Below, piece by piece: positions 1 to 7,194 of a stretch of DNA of 9,131 nt. Source of the stretch: Escherichia coli (GTDB lineage: Bacteria > Pseudomonadota > Gammaproteobacteria > Enterobacterales > Enterobacteriaceae); assembly GCF_003334785.1 (NCBI RefSeq), contig NZ_QOWV01000034.1. The stretch is one strand, 5' to 3'. Below the pieces are notes generated by a model. That model had not been told where the DNA came from and did not search any database. It was given only the letters and a program-made list of their open reading frames with translations. The stretch's first letter is position 1, and every line of letters starts with the position of its first letter. The translations under genes and the position numbers were made by a program.

Positions 1-75
1 ATTCAGCGCAGTAGCTATCGCACGAATGCTCATTTTGGCTGACAAACCAGCTCGTATCTCCTCGCGCTCAGACAG

Positions 76-100
76 TGAACCGCCCCGGGAATCCTGGAGA
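76..100. repeat. Left terminal inverted repeat (IRL) of the IS element
   Basis: 25-bp sequence starting TGAAC, matching the reverse complement of 1361-1385 at 23/25 positions. Confidence 0.8.
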
Positions 101-129
101 CTAAACTTCCTGAGAAAGAGGTAAACAGG

Positions 130-456
130 ATGACTAAAAATACTCGTTTTTCCCCCGAAGTCCGTCAACGGGCAGTCCGTATGGTTCTGGAAAGTCAGAG
201 CGAATATGACTCACAATGGGCGACAATTTGTTCCATTGCTCCAAAGATTGGCTGTACGCCGGAGACTCTGCGTGTCTGGGTTCGCCAGCATGAGCGGGAT
301 ACCGGGGGCGGTGATGGTGGGCTCACCAGCGCTGAACGTCAGCGTCTGAAAGAGCTGGAACGTGAAAATCGTGAACTGCGCCGCAGTAACGATATCCTTC
401 GCCAGGCTTCCGCTTATTTTGCGAAGGCGGAGTTCGACCGCCTCTGGAAAAAATGA
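130..456 (+). CDS. IS3-family transposase OrfA (helix-turn-helix DNA-binding subunit with leucine-zipper-like C-terminus)
   Basis: 108-aa ORF. N-terminal HTH-like segment ([13 protein letters not shown]...[14 protein letters not shown]) and C-terminal heptad-like segment ([27 protein letters not shown]), as in IS3-family OrfA. Ends at the A6 slippery tract. Confidence 0.85.
448..456 (+). other. Candidate programmed -1 ribosomal frameshift / translational coupling site (A6 tract, AAAAAATGA) joining orfA and orfB
   Basis: A6 run at 448-453 directly before the overlapping ATGA. IS3-family elements commonly make an OrfAB fusion by -1 frameshifting on A-rich slippery sites. No downstream structure was evaluated. 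Confidence 0.4.
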
Positions 457-1343
457 TGCCACTGCTGGATAAGCTGCGTGAGCAGTACGGGGTCGGACCG
501 CTATGCAGCGAACTGCATATTGCCCCGTCAACGTATTACCACTGTCAGCAACAGCGACATCATCCGGATAAACGCAGTGCCCGTGCGCAGCGCGATGACT
601 GGCTGAAGAAAGAGATACAGCGCGTATACGATGAAAATCACAAGGTATACGGTGTGCGTAAAGTCTGGCGTCAGTTGTTACGGGAAGGTATCAGAGTGGC
701 CAGATGCACTGTGGCACGTCTCATGGCGGTTATGGGACTTGCCGGTGTTCTCCGGGGTAAAAAGGTCCGTACGACCATCAGCCGGAAAGCCGTTGCCGCA
801 GGCGACCGCGTAAACCGTCAGTTCGTGGCAGAACGACCTGACCAGCTGTGGGTGGCTGATTTTACTTACGTCAGCACATGGCAGGGCTTCGTCTATGTGG
901 CGTTTATCATTGATGTGTTTGCCGGATACATCGTGGGGTGGCGGGTCTCATCGTCTATGGAAACGACATTCGTGCTGGATGCGCTGGAGCAGGCGTTGTG
1001 GGCCCGTCGTCCGTCTGGCACCATCCATCACAGCGATAAAGGCTCTCAGTATGTGTCACTGGCCTATACGGAGCGACTAAAAGAAGCCGGATTACTGGCA
1101 TCAACAGGGAGTACAGGCGACTCGTATGACAACGCGATGGCGGAGAGCATCAATGGTCTTTACAAAGCGGAGGTAATACACCGTAAGAGCTGGAAAAACC
1201 GTGCAGAAGTGGAACTGGCCACACTAACGTGGGTGGACTGGTATAACAATCGACGATTGCTGGGAAGGCTGGGCCATACTCCTCCGGCAGAAGCAGAAAA
1301 AGCTTATTATGCTTCCATCGGAAACGATGATCTGGCAGCCTGA
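453..1343 (+). CDS. IS3-family transposase OrfB (DDE catalytic/integrase-core subunit)
   Basis: 296-aa ORF in the -1 frame relative to orfA. Candidate DDE residues in [16 protein letters not shown] and [13 protein letters not shown] (RNase-H-like transposase core). ATG at 453-455 overlaps orfA stop TGA at 454-456. Confidence 0.85.
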
Positions 1344-1360
1344 GTTCACAGATAAAACAC

Positions 1361-1385
1361 TCTCCAGGAAACCCGGGGCGGTTCA
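1361..1385. repeat. Right terminal inverted repeat (IRR) of the IS element
   Basis: Reverse complement TGAACCGCCCCGGGTTTCCTGGAGA pairs with 76-100; located 18 bp after the orfB stop codon (1341-1343). Confidence 0.8.
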
Positions 1386-1506: not shown

Positions 1507-2082
1507 ATGACGCAATCAGAGATGCTGAAATTAATCGCCCGACATGGTTATAACGTTGGATTTGGCGCTAAGAAAAACTTTGCCACCTATGATCTGATTT
1601 GTAAGGCATCCGGTTGGATTAGCTTTATTTCTCTTGCTGTCGGTGTGTTCGCCCTTTTTATTCCTGAGCTGGCCACAAACGTCATTTCCGCGATATTAAT
1701 TATATTTGGTGTTGCTACAATGTACATTCAGTTTTATGACTCGGAAAAGCAGAGTTATGAAAGTGCGGGGATTGAGCAGACCAAAATTTTTAATGAACTT
1801 GAAGTCATCTACCGCAACGTAAAAAGCGATGCAAACTTTGACTATCAGCGTACACAACAATCCATCGACGCTATCATGTCCCGGTTTTACGGCACGGTCA
1901 TCAGCAAACAGATCTTCGGAAGTAACTGGTACGCACATTATAAATTTTACTGTGAATTTGAAAAAGCATGGGTTGAAGAAGAGCTGAACCTGACACTGAA
2001 GGACAAAATCCCGCTTTCGCTCTGCTTTCTCGCCGGTCTGGCGATCATTTTTACTATAGCTGTCATCTGGAAAACGCCCTGA
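1507..2082 (+). CDS. Small multi-pass membrane protein of unknown function (two adjacent N-proximal hydrophobic helices plus a C-terminal one; SLATT-like or Abi-like effector topology is a guess)
   Basis: 191-aa ORF with GAGG RBS. Hydrophobic segments WISFISLAVGVFALFIPEL and ISAILIIFGVATMYIQF (about residues 36-76) and IPLSLCFLAGLAIIFTIAVIW (about 168-188), separated by a charged, presumably soluble ~90-aa region. AT-rich codon usage like the neighbouring defence operon. Confidence 0.7.
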   Translation: MTQSEMLKLIARHGYNVGFGAKKNFATYDLICKASGWISFISLAVGVFALFIPELATNVISAILIIFGVATMYIQFYDSEKQSYESAGIEQTKIFNELEVIYRNVKSDANFDYQRTQQSIDAIMSRFYGTVISKQIFGSNWYAHYKFYCEFEKAWVEEELNLTLKDKIPLSLCFLAGLAIIFTIAVIWKTP

Positions 2083-2634: not shown

Positions 2635-3360
2635 TTATGATGTACATAATACCTTAAAATTATCAACTAGCTGAGCATTAACCTCCATCTGACTAATCCC
2701 CCATAATGCGGCTAACTGTTTCTCTGCAATCCCACTATCCCATGGCATTAGTGGGTCATTACGAAACTTAGCAAATGGCCCATCTGTTTCTGTAAGAATG
2801 CGTGATTTGGGTATTTTCAAAACTAAGGCCTTACCCTTTATTGTATCGAGCATAGCAGGCCCCACTGAGAACCAGCATCCTAAATCAATTGCCCTTTCAA
2901 GCTGCTTAGGTGTTCCAGTGAACCAATGCAATATTGCCACCCCATCGATATTTTCAATCTCATCAAGCACCGCTGATGCACTTCCCCGACTATGGATAGT
3001 CATAATCTTGCCACCAGCCCGATTTACACTGTTGAGAATGTGTCGGAACACTTTCAATTGAATATCCCAATGTTCTTTAAATCCCTGTCCACCATCAAGC
3101 CCTATTTCCCCTACATACTTAGTTTCCGAAAGCAATGAATCAAACAGGTCTAACTCATGCGATCTTTGATGCGCGATTTGAGGATGTAGCCCAAGAGCAG
3201 TTCGGATTCGTTGACTTTCTTTAGCCAATAAAGAAGTACCATGCCATGCTTTAGGTGTTGTTGTCACCGACAGAATATAAGTCCCTCGACGTTTACTTTC
3301 TTCAGCCACGAGGTCTGGCCGAGGATATAAGTCTAGATGACAGTGCATATCGATGCTCAT
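2635..3360 (-). CDS. qatD: TatD-family metal-dependent hydrolase/DNase, QatD of a Qat defence system
   Basis: 241-aa ORF beginning MSIDMHCHLDLY (the HxH metal-binding motif that opens TatD-family TIM-barrel hydrolases), with further conserved His/Asp/Glu positions. ATGA start/stop overlap with the upstream QueC-like gene at 3357-3360. Last gene of the operon. Confidence 0.85.
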   Translation of the reverse strand: MSIDMHCHLDLYPRPDLVAEESKRRGTYILSVTTTPKAWHGTSLLAKESQRIRTALGLHPQIAHQRSHELDLFDSLLSETKYVGEIGLDGGQGFKEHWDIQLKVFRHILNSVNRAGGKIMTIHSRGSASAVLDEIENIDGVAILHWFTGTPKQLERAIDLGCWFSVGPAMLDTIKGKALVLKIPKSRILTETDGPFAKFRNDPLMPWDSGIAEKQLAALWGISQMEVNAQLVDNFKVLCTS

Positions 3361-4676
3361 ACTATGTTCTCACTCAGTAAATAGCTTTCAACCTCATCTA
3401 GGCCATCCTTAAATACTTGCTTGAAATTATCAAATTCTGCCGTAGGCAAAGGGCCACTTTTGGCAATCCATGTACCTATTTTCAAAGTCGATTTCTGCGT
3501 GATCGCAATCCTAAGGGCGATCAGGTCGTCCCTGCGATCTATTTCATTCATTACTTTAGCTAAGGACTGGAAAATATATTCAACATCTCTACTAATTCCC
3601 CCTGCATGAAGTGATGCTCGTCGAATGATACACGGTATACATACCCCACATTGCTGCCCCATTCGTTTCCAATGACTGCAGGATACTGTACTTTCCACAA
3701 TTTTAGATAAGAGCTGCTTATTTGAACATTCGGAGATCATTTTTCCTTTTGTCTTAAACTGATATGGATTGATTATTTGACAAGAAATACCGAGCGCATC
3801 AAAGATCTTTTGTATGCTCGTAATAAAATGTGGATGTGTTGTTCGTGTGCTCAGCGAACCTATCCGCCGTGGAGTAAGTGGTGCATTTAATGAGATAAAT
3901 CCATTTTCAGGTACGAACAAATCAATCTTTTCTTGTTGAGATATCTCTTGTACGGCACAAGCACCTACGGCCGCAAGGGCAAGAAAATTGAGGCTACGAG
4001 TTCGCATCGTAATATCAGTCACGCCTTGATAAATGTGTGGGTCAGCATTAATCTCAAAGCGCGAAAATTGGCCACTTAATTTTTCAGCAATCTGATCTTG
4101 ACGAGACTTATCCCCTTTATAAGCATGACTAACCAAAAGTGGAGCGCGCCCTGCAGCCAGAAGATCTATTGCACCAATAGCTGAATCCAGACCTCCTGAA
4201 AATAAGCTGACACAGTCAAGCCCTTTTAGCTTAATCAGACGATGCCTTGAATGCTGGCTATAAGGCTCTGGCGGTGCATAACCATCGTCACAAAATTCGA
4301 AATCCCAGATGTCTCCACTAAGAAAATGCAAAGCACTCTCAAGTTCTTTCTTTAGACTAATCCATCTGGATGGTTCATGAAGGGGGAGTCGTAACGACAA
4401 TTGGCGGGTCCAACCATCCTCGGAACTTTCACGCTGAACGAAAGTATCTGCTGCAGTTACTGCTAATGCAACACTCAGAAAATCCATGACCTTAGCTGGA
4501 AGCTGTACTCCCAAACGTCTGATCCGATCAATCGCAGGATTCCCGATAACAGATATATCTCCGCGCCTCTGACCACTTAATCCATATAGCTGAACAGGTA
4601 ACACTTTCTCACTTGCTGGCGGCAAATGGTGATGTTTATGATGGAAAACTAATTGTGTCACTGGTATGCCTCCCAT
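3357..4676 (-). CDS. qatC: QueC-like PP-loop ATPase (7-cyano-7-deazaguanine synthase family) with an N-terminal extension, QatC
   Basis: 439-aa ORF. PP-loop motif SGGLDS at residues 160-165 (nt 4182-4199, minus strand). C-terminal cysteine cluster CSHWKRMGQQCGVCIPC resembling the QueC zinc site. Operon context with KAP NTPase and TatD. Confidence 0.8.
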   Translation of the reverse strand: MGGIPVTQLVFHHKHHHLPPASEKVLPVQLYGLSGQRRGDISVIGNPAIDRIRRLGVQLPAKVMDFLSVALAVTAADTFVQRESSEDGWTRQLSLRLPLHEPSRWISLKKELESALHFLSGDIWDFEFCDDGYAPPEPYSQHSRHRLIKLKGLDCVSLFSGGLDSAIGAIDLLAAGRAPLLVSHAYKGDKSRQDQIAEKLSGQFSRFEINADPHIYQGVTDITMRTRSLNFLALAAVGACAVQEISQQEKIDLFVPENGFISLNAPLTPRRIGSLSTRTTHPHFITSIQKIFDALGISCQIINPYQFKTKGKMISECSNKQLLSKIVESTVSCSHWKRMGQQCGVCIPCIIRRASLHAGGISRDVEYIFQSLAKVMNEIDRRDDLIALRIAITQKSTLKIGTWIAKSGPLPTAEFDNFKQVFKDGLDEVESYLLSENIV

Positions 4677-5410
4677 TCTTGCCAGGCCTCAATAATGGCC
4701 TGACGTTCAATTTTTACCATTTGGTTTCGTGTGAACGATCTTATGTTACCGGCAAGTTTTGGTGCCATATGTTTATCAACAACAACTTTAATCAATTCCC
4801 GGAGTTCAATTTCTGCATGAATTGCCTTTGAAGGTGTATCTGCTTTGTTCCATGCCCTATTAGAATCCATTACCATCTGAAGGAAAATACTTTCCGCTAG
4901 ATAACCAATCATTGTGTCAACAATCAAACCATCAGTTATTTTTTGAGGATCGAAAATTTCTACGCCATCAAGAGCCTCCACTAAAGCATGGTTCATGGCC
5001 GCACAGATCTTTTCTGAGTCACCATCCTGTGATGTTAAAGCTTGAGCAATAGTTGATATTGCTATTTCGCATGGAAGGCCTGCCAAACTGCCCAAATCGA
5101 TGCTTGGTTCTCCGGGAGCCGAAGGCATTCCCACTAAAGCCCCAAATAATTCGGCCCCAGCTTGCGTGACACTCCCTAATCGCCGAGCAGCGTTACTGCT
5201 CCCTCCGGAGGCTTTTCGCGCGTAGTGCCCTATGGCTTTTCTGAAATCTGCTCGATTTCCATTTGATACCGCATTTCCCAACGATTCTCGAAATGGCGCA
5301 AACCTCCTTTCTTGCGGCGAGGGTAACGGTTGCTGTGGCTGATCATCAGCCCATGGTGGAACCAGCGGAGAGCCACCTCCTGGACCTTTACTTGATTGTG
5401 ATGTTCCCAT
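4658..5410 (-). CDS. qatB: QatB, protein of unknown function (Gly/Pro/Ser-rich N-terminal ~100 aa followed by a helical domain)
   Basis: 250-aa ORF between the KAP NTPase and QueC-like genes. Start ATG shares one nucleotide with the qatA stop (TAATG at 5408-5412) and the 3' end overlaps the qatC start by 19 nt. Assignment is by operon position; no motif recognised. Confidence 0.6.
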   Translation of the reverse strand: MGTSQSSKGPGGGSPLVPPWADDQPQQPLPSPQERRFAPFRESLGNAVSNGNRADFRKAIGHYARKASGGSSNAARRLGSVTQAGAELFGALVGMPSAPGEPSIDLGSLAGLPCEIAISTIAQALTSQDGDSEKICAAMNHALVEALDGVEIFDPQKITDGLIVDTMIGYLAESIFLQMVMDSNRAWNKADTPSKAIHAEIELRELIKVVVDKHMAPKLAGNIRSFTRNQMVKIERQAIIEAWQEWEAYQ

Positions 5411-7194
5411 TAAGCGTCCTTATTCCATTGTTCATCTTTTAATGCTGCAGTCATCCACGCTGGTCGTTTCATCCCCAACTGTAATTCCTGTAGATAACGA
5501 ATTAATATGCTGGCTGCATCTGTTGAGTAGCGGGCCAACAGACATGCGCCGGAAAAGCCTCTGGGCTTACGATCCCAATCTGATACCTGCCGTAACTGGT
5601 TAATTAAACCTTCCATTACAGGTATTTGCTCCTCACGAGGAAGTGCTTTCAAAAGGTTTTCTGCTGTAGGAGAACTAGTGTTTTTCAATTCAATTAGTGC
5701 ATTTAGTACTTCCCGTCCAGATGGCGATAAACCAACCACATATGCACCTATTGGCATAGTTTCTCGGGACAGATATATGGCGGCCCTTAAGTCAATCCCA
5801 CCAAGACGAGGTTCAAGTTGGGCCCATTGACTGATGAAAGATTTAGTCGTTGGACTATCAGTCCATGTCTTTGGTGCATCAGTAGGTATTTGACCGCCAT
5901 TATCGTCAAGCTGTTTAAGTATCTGGGGAACACCTTGTTCAATATCCACGAGATGATATAAATCAGCGGTGCCATCCACTCCAACACAGCGTTCAAAAAT
6001 TACTAGCTTAGTAATAATTGCTTCATCCAAAGGCATTGCTCGTCGCTTCGCAATTTGAGATCGCATTTTCACAACATTCAACAAGCGTTTAACGATCCTG
6101 GGATTACCATGAATAATTGGAGAGTTGGCTAAAATGGGAGCAATACGGTCAGCACGCGCAAACGCCAGCGCGAGGTTGCTATCATCCGCTTCACCAGTCA
6201 TTTTTAAGGCCTCCTGACGTGAGATTGGTTCATCTTTCCAGGATTGCTGTAACGCCTTCTCTAAGCCCTCACGGAGCATAGTTATTTTTTCGCCTTCTAA
6301 GCCATGTTCAATGGCATAAAGCATGAACAGATACGAACGGATCTCACGGACCCCAGCCTTAGGCACCCGAATAGGAACCTGGATTAGCTTATCCAGATAA
6401 TCTATTTGATGGCGCTGTGATGCCCCTTTGAAGTAATCAGCCACAGAAGAGCGAATCATGTCCTCATCTGCTGCAATAATAAAGGCTGTATTAGTCAAGA
6501 AAAGGAATAGCCTGATAGCTTCAAGTGTATGGATAGCATTGGCAGGGAGACAGCGGTCTAGGTTATCTATTACCACAATGAGTGGCTTTCCAAGTTCTTC
6601 TAGAATTTCCCCATATTCCTTACGAAAGGCATCAATCTGCTGAGGGGGGCTTTTTTTTGTTTGTGGTTTAATCAAACCACAAGCAGTTTCTTTACCTTCT
6701 TTAGCTATATTGCCTAAAGCCTCATACTCTTCCTGGCTCTGGATGCCATCGGTGATATTTCTTAATGCACCAATCCCCCTAGAAAGCAAACCGCCAGTAG
6801 GTAATCCTGCCATTAAAGCTGTACCCTCAGCTAGTAATCCCATAGCTCTAAAACCATCAACTCGACTAAGGAGTCTCTTAGTTTTTGATATAAGGGTAGA
6901 ATTACCTTCAGCAGCTTTTGTCAATTCTGTAGCGATGACTTCAAGAAGTGCGGCACGGGCGTCGTCGTACCCCTGATAGAGCCAAGAGTCAAAATTGATA
7001 ACAATCCAATCTTTGTCGTCTTGCTCAAGTTTTTGCTCTATCAGTTTTAACAGAGAGGATTTACCTGCCCCCCAGTTTCCAAAAATTCCGATAGATACTG
7101 GTAACATATCTTTCGTGGTAAGTACATCCACGGCTAACTGAGATACTTCACCAAAATTTAGGTAGTCTTCTGATGACTCTTTGTCTGACCACAT
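5410..7194 (-). CDS. qatA: KAP-family P-loop NTPase, QatA
   Basis: 594-aa ORF. Walker A GNWGAGKSS at residues 39-47 (nt 7057-7080). Walker B-like PLIVVIDNLDRC, the hhhhDxLDR signature typical of KAP NTPases. AAGGAT RBS 6 nt upstream of ATG. First gene of the four-gene operon. Confidence 0.8.
   Translation of the reverse strand: MWSDKESSEDYLNFGEVSQLAVDVLTTKDMLPVSIGIFGNWGAGKSSLLKLIEQKLEQDDKDWIVINFDSWLYQGYDDARAALLEVIATELTKAAEGNSTLISKTKRLLSRVDGFRAMGLLAEGTALMAGLPTGGLLSRGIGALRNITDGIQSQEEYEALGNIAKEGKETACGLIKPQTKKSPPQQIDAFRKEYGEILEELGKPLIVVIDNLDRCLPANAIHTLEAIRLFLFLTNTAFIIAADEDMIRSSVADYFKGASQRHQIDYLDKLIQVPIRVPKAGVREIRSYLFMLYAIEHGLEGEKITMLREGLEKALQQSWKDEPISRQEALKMTGEADDSNLALAFARADRIAPILANSPIIHGNPRIVKRLLNVVKMRSQIAKRRAMPLDEAIITKLVIFERCVGVDGTADLYHLVDIEQGVPQILKQLDDNGGQIPTDAPKTWTDSPTTKSFISQWAQLEPRLGGIDLRAAIYLSRETMPIGAYVVGLSPSGREVLNALIELKNTSSPTAENLLKALPREEQIPVMEGLINQLRQVSDWDRKPRGFSGACLLARYSTDAASILIRYLQELQLGMKRPAWMTAALKDEQWNKDA

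What the first reader, a model, noticed from the sequence alone, without database searches (positions are those of the whole stretch)
6644..6658. Adjacent homopolymer tracts (A8 followed by C6 on the coding strand) inside qatA
Plus-strand GGGGGG (6644-6649) and TTTTTTTT (6651-6658) encode ...TKKSPPQ... in QatA. Mononucleotide runs of 8 are slipped-strand mispairing hotspots, and a +/-1 change would truncate QatA after about 180 residues and, through translational coupling, likely lower expression of the whole operon. This could act as a stochastic ON/OFF switch for a potentially costly defence system, or simply be a hotspot for inactivating mutations.
Basis: inference. Interest (0 to 1): 0.4.

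Follow-up and report, generated by a model that had tools for sequence, protein, structure and literature searches.

The report
Ordinary homopolymer indel hotspot in qatA
The A8 and C6 runs inside the phage-defence gene qatA are real, but they are a by-product of how E. coli spells a conserved Lys-Lys-Ser-Pro-Pro motif and behave as an ordinary, rarely hit frameshift hotspot, not as a built-in on/off switch.

Summary
The coding strand reads ACA AAA AAA AGC CCC CCT CAG (T179-Q185 of the 594-aa QatA), and the gene heads a complete qatABCD operon in E. coli.

A phase-variation switch is not supported.
- **RefSeq complete genomes:** the site is present in 243 records. 238 are identical over 83 bp, none has an A7 or A9, and one has C5 (ETEC1703, with qatA split in two).
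- **Homologues:** the SPPQQ residues are nearly invariant and KK is common. Other genera spell the site with interrupted codons (A7+C3 at most in the 90%-identical group; AAG AAA AGT CCA CCC further out).
- **Larger public collection:** all four ±1 alleles exist in both E. coli allelic backgrounds, at roughly 0.9% of loci.
- **Controls:** shorter runs in the same operon and a Q154* nonsense allele are found as often or more often (57, 202 and 87 contigs).
- **Artefacts:** many −1 calls, including A7+C5 double deletions, come from one series of GenBank complete genomes and look like long-read homopolymer compression.
- **Published work:** QatB and QatC alone still defend against some phages, so a qatA frameshift need not switch the system off.

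Verdict: a real tract and a modest mutational and sequencing-error hotspot. It is ordinary.

The parts
6651..6658 (-). A8 run on the coding strand (T8 on +). It spans the last base of ACA (T179), AAA AAA (K180, K181) and the first base of AGC (S182).
   Evidence: A7 and A9 alleles were confirmed at DNA level in public assemblies. None is present in 243 RefSeq complete-genome records.
6644..6649 (-). C6 run on the coding strand (G6 on +). It spans the last base of AGC, CCC (P183) and the first two bases of CCT (P184).
   Evidence: A C5 allele is present in ETEC1703. A synonymous CCC>CCT interruption is present in strains E62 and MSI001.
6640..6660 (-). Codons for T179-Q185 (TKKSPPQ), part of the conserved KKSPPQQIDAFRKEYGEIL block of QatA.
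   Evidence: SPPQQ is nearly invariant in 120 homologues of 72-94% identity. [ST]PP[QKRE][QE]I is found in most of 80 genome loci down to about 40% identity.
5410..7194 (-). qatA, a KAP-family P-loop NTPase of 594 aa. Walker A (GNWGAGKS) lies at residues 39-46 and the DNLDR Walker B region at residues 210-214, so the tract sits between them.
6600..6602 (-). TAG stop reached after a -1-nt change (A7 or C5). The product is 197 aa.
   Evidence: It is identical to the annotated N-terminal CDS of ETEC1703.
6632..6634 (-). TGA stop reached after a +1-nt change (A9 or C7). The product is 187 aa.
   Evidence: These products exist in public assemblies.
4658..5410 (-). qatB. Its ATG overlaps the qatA stop (TAATG).
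3357..4676 (-). qatC (QueC-like). It overlaps qatB by 19 nt.
2635..3360 (-). qatD (TatD-family nuclease). It overlaps qatC by 4 nt.

Best explanation
The A8-G-C6 tract is an incidental result of codon choice at a conserved QatA motif (K-K-S-P-P). AAA AAA for Lys-Lys plus AGC for Ser already gives A7 in the closest relatives. The E. coli allele adds a preceding ACA codon, which makes A8, and uses CCC instead of CCT, which makes C6.

Like any 6-8-nt run, it is somewhat prone to replication slippage and to homopolymer miscalls in sequencing. It therefore produces occasional +/-1 frameshift alleles that cut QatA between Walker A and Walker B. Such alleles are rare null or partial-loss mutations of an accessory defence gene. 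They are not a programmed, reversible switch.

Shown here: the tract, its coding context, its near-invariance in high-quality genomes, the lack of DNA-level conservation, and the existence and low frequency of +/-1 alleles. Inferred: slippage as the mutational mechanism, loss of QatA function in truncated alleles, and possible polarity on qatBCD.
For: 1. 243 RefSeq complete-genome records hold the 83-bp region. 238 are identical, and the 5 that differ are one C5, two A8>A7 by substitution (Ser>Gly) and two synonymous CCC>CCT. There is no A7 or A9 length variant.
2. The protein motif is conserved but the DNA is not homopolymeric elsewhere. Citrobacter, Brenneria, Photorhabdus and Rahnella (about 90% aa identity) have GCT AAA AAA AGC CCT CCT. 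More distant relatives have AAG AAA AGT CCA CCC and similar.
3. Frequency in about 12,000 index blocks of the main E. coli allele: WT 11,910 blocks, A7 46 blocks, C5 43 blocks, A9 17 contigs, C7 3 contigs. That is about 0.9% in total.
4. Control runs in the same operon are hit as often or more often. qatA G6 -1 is on 57 contigs, qatC C5 -1 on 202, qatB A6 -1 on 28 and the Q154* nonsense allele on 87.
5. In RefSeq complete genomes the tract frameshift (1 genome) equals a G5>G4 frameshift (1 genome) and Q154* (1 genome).
6. No enrichment of long runs in the window. The site is the only place in QatA where synonymous codons readily give an 8-run.
7. Lin and Kussell (PMC3315296) report that E. coli avoids simple sequence repeats in coding regions. 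Indel rate rises exponentially with run length (PMC8510543).
Against: - All five non-identical RefSeq records differ inside the 15-nt tract and nowhere else in the 83 bp. The tract is therefore clearly more mutable than its flanks.
- All four +/-1 alleles occur in both allelic backgrounds, so there were at least 8 independent events or errors.
- A9 alleles occur only on short-read contigs, so they are probably real. The control runs show almost no +1 alleles. The A8 run therefore behaves as a genuine two-way slippage site.
- A low frequency among isolates does not by itself exclude a slow reversible switch. Mycobacterial 7-C tracts are treated as phase-variable at similar frequencies (PMC10334774, listed; only its title and abstract start were seen).
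- Reversion and within-culture heterogeneity could not be tested here.
Confidence: 0.8

Rival explanations
1. Contingency locus. The tract is a selected, reversible slipped-strand switch that turns QatA off and on. This would change the defence range, or by polarity the expression of the whole operon.
For: - The tract lies early enough to abolish the NTPase.
- +/-1 alleles of both runs exist in two backgrounds.
- One is in a clean complete genome.
- The qatA stop overlaps the qatB start.
- QatA affects the range of phages blocked.
Against: - No length polymorphism of A8 in 243 complete-genome records, and OFF alleles are about 0.4-0.9%.
- The tract is not conserved at DNA level in orthologues.
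- Shorter control runs and a nonsense codon give as many null alleles.
- A8 and C6 are, from general knowledge, below the lengths typical of proven phase-variable tracts in mismatch-repair-proficient bacteria.
- E. coli avoids coding repeats.
- QatBC defends without QatA.
Confidence: 0.07
2. Pure artefact. The tract-length variants in public data are sequencing or assembly errors at a homopolymer, and the tract is effectively stable in nature.
For: - -1 alleles are over-represented on contigs longer than 1 Mb: 18 blocks against 684 WT, or 2.6%, compared with about 0.8% on shorter contigs.
- Many come from one run of GenBank accessions (CP1635xx-CP1653xx).
- A7+C5 double deletions that do not restore frame occur on 16+3 contigs, with accessions that look like GenBank complete-genome records (the listed longest contigs are 5.0 and 5.2 Mb).
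- Control runs show almost only -1 alleles, and none of these run variants appears in RefSeq complete genomes except one G5>G4.
Against: - A9 alleles are all on contigs under 200 kb. They include NCBI isolate assemblies and metagenome scaffolds seen repeatedly.
- Most A7 blocks (41 of 46) and C5 blocks (30 of 43) are on contigs under 200 kb.
- ETEC1703 shows no frameshifted pseudogenes in a 50-kb core stretch.
- In the fetched loci the tract is the only indel from -240 to +2100, apart from one A-run indel upstream of qatA in L094 and a gap at a scaffold N-run in L086 and L106.
Confidence: 0.1
3. Recoding signal. A_AAA_AAA in the zero frame is a slippery heptamer or transcriptional-slippage site. 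It would let a fraction of ribosomes or transcripts make a 187- or 197-aa N-terminal QatA fragment from the intact gene.
For: The zero-frame reading AC[A AAA AAA] fits the X XXY YYZ pattern. The window's own IS3 element has an A6G run (448-454) at the overlap of its two ORFs, the place where, from general knowledge, IS3-family elements frameshift. From general knowledge, E. coli RNA polymerase slips on long A or T runs.
Against: - No significant downstream or local structure (fold z = -0.51).
- The heptamer is absent from orthologues (GCT AAA AAA AGC or AAG AAA AGT), so it is not conserved as a signal.
- No known role for a Walker-A-only fragment.
Confidence: 0.03

Closest known systems
Ordinary coding homopolymer indel hotspots in E. 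coli, where indel rate rises exponentially with run length (Foster lab mutation-accumulation work, PMC8510543 and its reference 18)
   Same: A short mononucleotide run in a coding sequence. Rare +/-1 changes give truncated products. Substitutions also cluster at the run, and the variation is not conserved.
   Different: Nothing material. The only particular point is that two runs lie next to each other, in a defence gene.
Repeat-mediated phase variation of phage defence. From general knowledge: homopolymer or tetranucleotide tracts in type I and type III restriction-modification mod/hsd genes of Haemophilus, Neisseria, Helicobacter and Campylobacter, and the G tract in pglX of the Streptomyces Pgl/BREX system.
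   Same: A repeat inside the reading frame of a defence gene, where a +/-1 change abolishes the protein.
   Different: Those tracts are usually longer and are polymorphic among close relatives at high frequency, and the repeats recur in orthologues. Here the length is essentially fixed, OFF alleles are below 1%, the tract is allele-specific, and the affected protein is not required for core QatBC defence.
Homopolymer-tract phase variation in Mycobacterium tuberculosis (for example the glpK 7-C tract; PMC10334774 and bioRxiv 10.1101/717272, listed)
   Same: A short (7-8 nt) coding run with frameshift alleles at a low percentage among isolates.
   Different: From general knowledge, mycobacteria lack MutS/MutL mismatch repair, and reversibility and adaptive benefit have been shown by experiment. 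Neither holds or is known here, and control runs in the same operon show equal or higher counts.
QatABCD anti-phage system (PADLOC models; PMC13279940, PMC13376578)
   Same: The four-gene operon in the window matches all four Qat models. QatA is the KAP NTPase.
   Different: In the text passages I searched, the Qat paper PMC13279940 does not mention a frameshift or a tract-based switch. This report adds only that natural qatA null alleles exist at low frequency.

Membership tests
QatABCD defence operon (the gene is qatA) | KAP-family P-loop NTPase matching a QatA model over its full length | tested here: met
   PADLOC PDLC02210 QatA, E=0, residues 1-593 against model positions 1-593 of 593. 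NCBIfam NF041923 QatA scores 385.8 bits, below its curated cut-off of 600. This probably explains the generic 'KAP family' name in RefSeq.
QatABCD defence operon (the gene is qatA) | Co-oriented qatB, qatC (QueC-like) and qatD (TatD nuclease) immediately downstream | tested here: met
   PADLOC QatB 2.3e-130, QatC 1.1e-140, QatD 5.8e-97. The ORFs overlap or abut. RefSeq names qatC and qatD in identical loci.
Repeat-mediated phase-variable (contingency) locus | Tract length polymorphic among closely related isolates at appreciable frequency | tested here: not met
   242 of 243 RefSeq complete-genome records have the same lengths, and no A7 or A9 is present. About 0.9% variants in about 12,000 index blocks.
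Repeat-mediated phase-variable (contingency) locus | The tract varies more than comparable sequence, i.e. more than shorter runs or other null mutations in the same genes | tested here: not met
   Control runs and Q154* are found on 57, 202, 28 and 87 contigs, against 27, 27, 11 and 3 for the tract alleles. In RefSeq the count is 1 each. Within its own 83-bp neighbourhood the tract is the only variable part.
Repeat-mediated phase-variable (contingency) locus | The repeat is retained at DNA level in orthologues beyond what the protein requires | tested here: not met
   The closest genera have A7+C3. Others have interrupted codons with runs of 3-5 in most cases.
Repeat-mediated phase-variable (contingency) locus | Both +1 and -1 alleles occur, so two-way switching is possible | tested here: met
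   A7, A9, C5 and C7 are all present in two allelic backgrounds.
Repeat-mediated phase-variable (contingency) locus | High-rate, reversible switching within a clonal population, with a phenotype | not testable with these tools
   This needs read-level data or experiments.
Programmed -1 ribosomal frameshift site | A slippery heptamer plus a conserved stimulatory element, retained in orthologues | tested here: not met
   The heptamer is present only in the E. coli allele. There is no significant structure.

The most novel reading that the evidence does not exclude
The A8/C6 tract is a slow, reversible contingency site. It toggles QatA, and with it the range of phages blocked, while leaving the QatBC core active. 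E. coli lineages could then shed a costly or self-toxic accessory activity and regain it later. The roughly 1% of frameshift alleles, seen in both directions and in both allelic backgrounds, would be the standing OFF fraction.
Probability: 0.05. Interest if true: 0.45.

Novelty: already known. Interest (0 to 1): 0.12.

Why it matters
It matters little in itself: it is a known kind of mutational hotspot in a known defence gene.

There are two practical points.
- Automated defence-system calls and pseudogene counts at this locus will be affected by homopolymer miscalls. A7+C5 double deletions are found, with accessions that look like GenBank complete-genome records.
- Natural qatA null alleles exist while qatBCD stays intact: tract frameshifts, a G5>G4 frameshift and Q154*. 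This fits the published finding that QatBC is the core of the system and QatA an accessory that widens its range.

If the switch reading were true, it would be a rare case of repeat-based phase variation of a defence system in E. coli.

Tried and rejected
1. **DUST problem.** I first planned short variant queries that wild-type could not seed. BLAST's low-complexity filter would probably have masked the T8 and blocked seeding. I instead concatenated 83-mers of every +/-1 and +/-2 length variant and every single substitution in the tract, with an E-value cut-off set between a perfect match and a one-difference match. ETEC1703 served as the positive control. This worked and I reused it for control sites.
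2. **Upstream gene length as a quality signal.** I read the variable length of the upstream gene product in the GenBank complete genomes (433-517 aa) as evidence of error-ridden assemblies. That was wrong. The lengths differ by multiples of 3 aa because of a 9-bp in-frame tandem repeat.
3. **CBASS frameshift.** I suspected the ORF pair 130-456 / 453-1343 was a frameshifted CBASS cyclase. It is an IS3-family element that has replaced most of that gene.
4. **Hairpin next to the tract** (6657-6686, flagged as terminator-like on the + strand). The fold z-score is -0.51. It lies inside the coding sequence on the antisense strand and follows from the G-L-I-K-P codons. Rejected as a signal.
5. **Literature.** A search for the ETEC1703 sequencing method found nothing. 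Lee et al. 2012 (PNAS), wanted for per-run indel rates, is not held.
6. **T8 at 8581-8588.** I checked it as a possible variable tract. It is identical in the window and the two other strains that align over it (ETEC1703, ATCC 11775).

Full report
**1. Observation**

The window has GGGGGG at 6644-6649, C at 6650 and TTTTTTTT at 6651-6658 on the + strand. The only long ORF across it is 5410..7194 on the - strand, 594 aa. On that strand the site reads ACA AAA AAA AGC CCC CCT CAG = T179-K-K-S-P-P-Q185.

The ORF matches the PADLOC QatA model end to end (E=0). QatB (4658-5410), QatC (3357-4676) and QatD (2635-3360) follow with overlapping or abutting ends. NCBIfam's QatA and QatB models hit below their curated cut-offs, which probably explains the generic RefSeq names.

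The DNA is E. coli. qatA is 100% identical to several RefSeq chromosomes, and 252 of 5,426 complete genomes carry the gene.

A +1 change gives a 187-aa product and a -1 change a 197-aa product. Both end between Walker A (residues 39-46) and the DNLDR Walker B region (residues 210-214).

**2. Is it more than chance?**

- Runs of 8 or more: 2 in the window against 1.1 expected from dinucleotide shuffles, so not enriched.
- An 8-run within 3 nt of a 6-run appears in 6 of 500 shuffles.
- Resampling synonymous codons for PQTKKSPPQQ with the operon's own codon usage gives A>=8 in 7% of draws, C>=6 in 3.6% and both in 0.35%.
- This peptide is essentially the only place in QatA where an 8-run can arise.

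The pairing is uncommon, but it was selected after the fact.

**3. Why the tract is there**

SPPQQ is almost invariant and KK is the commonest preceding pair in 120 homologues of 72-94% identity. [ST]PP[QKRE][QE]I is found in most of 80 loci from other species, down to about 40% identity. The residues are constrained.

The DNA is not.
- Citrobacter, Brenneria, Photorhabdus and Rahnella (about 90% aa identity) have GCT AAA AAA AGC CCT CCT, which is A7 and C3.
- Marine gammaproteobacteria have AAG AAA AGT CCA CCC.
- More distant taxa mostly have runs of 3-5.

The E. coli allele reached A8 through a preceding ACA codon and C6 through CCC in place of CCT.

**4. Variation in high-quality genomes**

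243 RefSeq complete-genome records hold the 83-bp region 6610-6692, and 238 of them are identical.

To identify the other five, I searched with a concatenation of all length variants and all single substitutions of the tract. The E-value cut-off admitted only perfect 83-mers. The five records are:

| Strain | Change | Effect |
|---|---|---|
| ETEC1703 | G5 on + (C5 on the coding strand) | frameshift |
| MCJCHV-1, FCI23 | 6651 T>C | A8 becomes A7, Ser182Gly |
| E62, MSI001 | 6646 G>A | CCC>CCT, synonymous; the state seen in other genera |

No record has A7 or A9 by length change. In ETEC1703 qatA is annotated as two CDSs of 197 and 398 aa. A 50-kb core stretch of that chromosome has no frameshifted pseudogene, so the allele is probably real.

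All five differences fall inside the 15-nt tract. The tract is therefore locally the most mutable part of the region.

**5. Variation in the larger collection**

I predicted the N-terminal products of A7, A9, C5 and C7 in the two common E. coli allelic backgrounds and looked them up by exact sequence. All eight exist.

| Background | C5 | A7 | A9 | C7 |
|---|---|---|---|---|
| B2-type allele (contigs) | 27 | 27 | 11 | 3 |
| Window-type allele (contigs) | 1 | 4 | 1 | 1 |

The DNA confirms the tract lengths in 25 fetched loci.

For the denominator, the wild-type B2-type protein is indexed in 11,910 blocks. A7 is in 46 blocks, C5 in 43 blocks, and A9 on 17 contigs. That is about 0.9% in total.

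**6. How much of this is artefact?**

- On contigs longer than 1 Mb, C5 is in 13 blocks and A7 in 5, against 684 for wild type. That is 2.6%, compared with about 0.8% on shorter contigs.
- Many of these come from one run of GenBank accessions, CP1635xx-CP1653xx.
- The clusters also hold a 186-aa product, TKKAPSAD, on 16+3 contigs, with accessions that look like GenBank complete-genome records (the listed longest contigs are 5.0 and 5.2 Mb). It requires both A7 and C5 together and does not restore frame. I read this as the signature of long-read homopolymer compression.
- By contrast, A9 occurs only on contigs under 200 kb. Most A7 and C5 blocks are also on contigs under 200 kb, so some alleles are real.

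**7. Controls**

The same look-up for other runs in the operon (B2-type allele) gave the following:

| Site | -1 allele (contigs) | +1 allele (contigs) |
|---|---|---|
| qatA G6, nt 122 | 57 | none |
| qatA G5, nt 416 | 5 | none |
| qatA A6, nt 905 | none | 1 |
| qatB A6 | 28 | none |
| qatC G5 | 4 | not tested |
| qatC C5 | 202 | not tested |

A Q154* nonsense allele is on 87 contigs.

In RefSeq complete genomes the same perfect-match trick found one G5>G4 genome (ExPEC XM), one Q154* genome (B771) and none of the other control-run variants tested (G6, A6, qatB A6, qatC C5, A7+C5). The tract, at 1 of 243, is no more often the site of inactivation than a 5-nt run or a single nonsense codon.

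Its only distinguishing behaviour is that +1 alleles are also seen. That is expected of a longer run.

**8. Consequence of a frameshift**

The qatA stop overlaps the qatB start (TAATG), and the downstream genes also overlap. Coupling and polarity are therefore plausible but only inferred.

PMC13279940 reports three relevant results.
- QatB and QatC alone, including a truncated E. coli operon, defend strongly against lambda-vir.
- Loss of QatA and QatD removes defence only against some phages (Bas25, Bas39).

A qatA frameshift is therefore more likely to narrow the defence range than to switch the system off.

**9. Comparison and verdict**

The tract fails three testable criteria of a contingency locus:
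- polymorphism among relatives;
- excess variability over comparable sequence;
- DNA-level conservation of the repeat.

It meets one criterion, that both directions of change occur. Reversibility and rate could not be tested.

E. coli is reported to avoid coding repeats (PMC3315296), and indel rates rise exponentially with run length (PMC8510543). This fits a modest hotspot at A8.

A recoding signal is unlikely. The slippery heptamer is not conserved, and no significant structure accompanies it.

The finding is a real sequence feature with an ordinary explanation.

Noticed in passing
window 7414-7465 (- strand gene 7326-8447): A perfect 9-bp tandem repeat (TCAGCAACC on +; GCT GAG GTT = Ala-Glu-Val on the coding strand) lies near the 3' end of the family-less 373-aa gene just upstream of qatA. 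Copy number is 5 in the window but 12, 16, 28, 30 and 25-53 in complete E. coli genomes. It is always in frame, giving products of 367-517 aa. Short-read contigs break or collapse there. The gene is not found beside qatA in the other species' loci fetched here. This is far more variable than the homopolymer tract.
   Followed up: partly
window 1-1385 (ORFs 130-456 and 453-1343, + strand): An IS3-family element. The two ORFs hit the N- and C-terminal parts of the IS3 transposase model, and an A6G run at 448-454 lies at their overlap, where IS3-family elements typically frameshift. It has replaced most of a CBASS-type nucleotidyltransferase gene that is intact in ATCC 11775. Only about the last 115 nt of that gene remain (about 1386-1499).
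   Followed up: partly
window 1507-2082 (+ strand): An intact SLATT / 2TM effector gene (NCBIfam SLATT_6, PADLOC '2TM effector') is left without its cyclase partner because of the IS insertion. It is an orphan effector next to the Qat operon.
   Followed up: no
window 6651 and 6646: Both substitution alleles found in RefSeq genomes shorten or break the runs. 6651 T>C copies the neighbouring C, the pattern expected of transient misalignment at a run boundary. 6646 G>A restores the CCT codon used by other genera.
   Followed up: partly
qatA nt 460-462 (window 6733-6735) and nt 416-420 (window 6775-6779): Other natural qatA null alleles exist. Q154* is on 87 contigs and in RefSeq strain B771. G5>G4 is on 5 contigs and in RefSeq strain ExPEC XM. 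qatA is lost by several routes while qatBCD stays in place.
   Followed up: partly
qatC nt 291-295 (C5 run; window about 4382-4386): A C5>C4 frameshift product of QatC is on 202 contigs in the large collection, but no such allele is in RefSeq complete genomes. It is either a clonal lineage with dead qatC or a systematic sequencing error. This is unresolved.
   Followed up: no
L003 (MCJCHV-1) 4311-4795 compared with window 8420-8900: The 5' part of the gene upstream of qatA, and the sequence beyond it, differ between strains. MCJCHV-1 has about 400 nt that the other three strains lack in the stretch aligned. Strain 300709 carries the gene as a frameshifted pseudogene. In strain 300709 an IS66-like element (ISCro1 family) lies just beyond a shortened qatD.
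   Followed up: no
window 6657-6686 (+ strand): A 13-pair inverted repeat directly next to the T8 was flagged as terminator-like on the antisense strand. The fold is not significant (z = -0.51) and the repeat follows from the G-L-I-K-P codons.
   Followed up: yes
window 5410-7194 and 4658-5410: NCBIfam QatA and QatB equivalog models score below their curated cut-offs (385.8 against 600; 74.4 against 100). RefSeq therefore mostly labels these E. coli genes 'KAP family P-loop NTPase fold protein' and 'hypothetical protein', even though qatC and qatD are named.
   Followed up: yes
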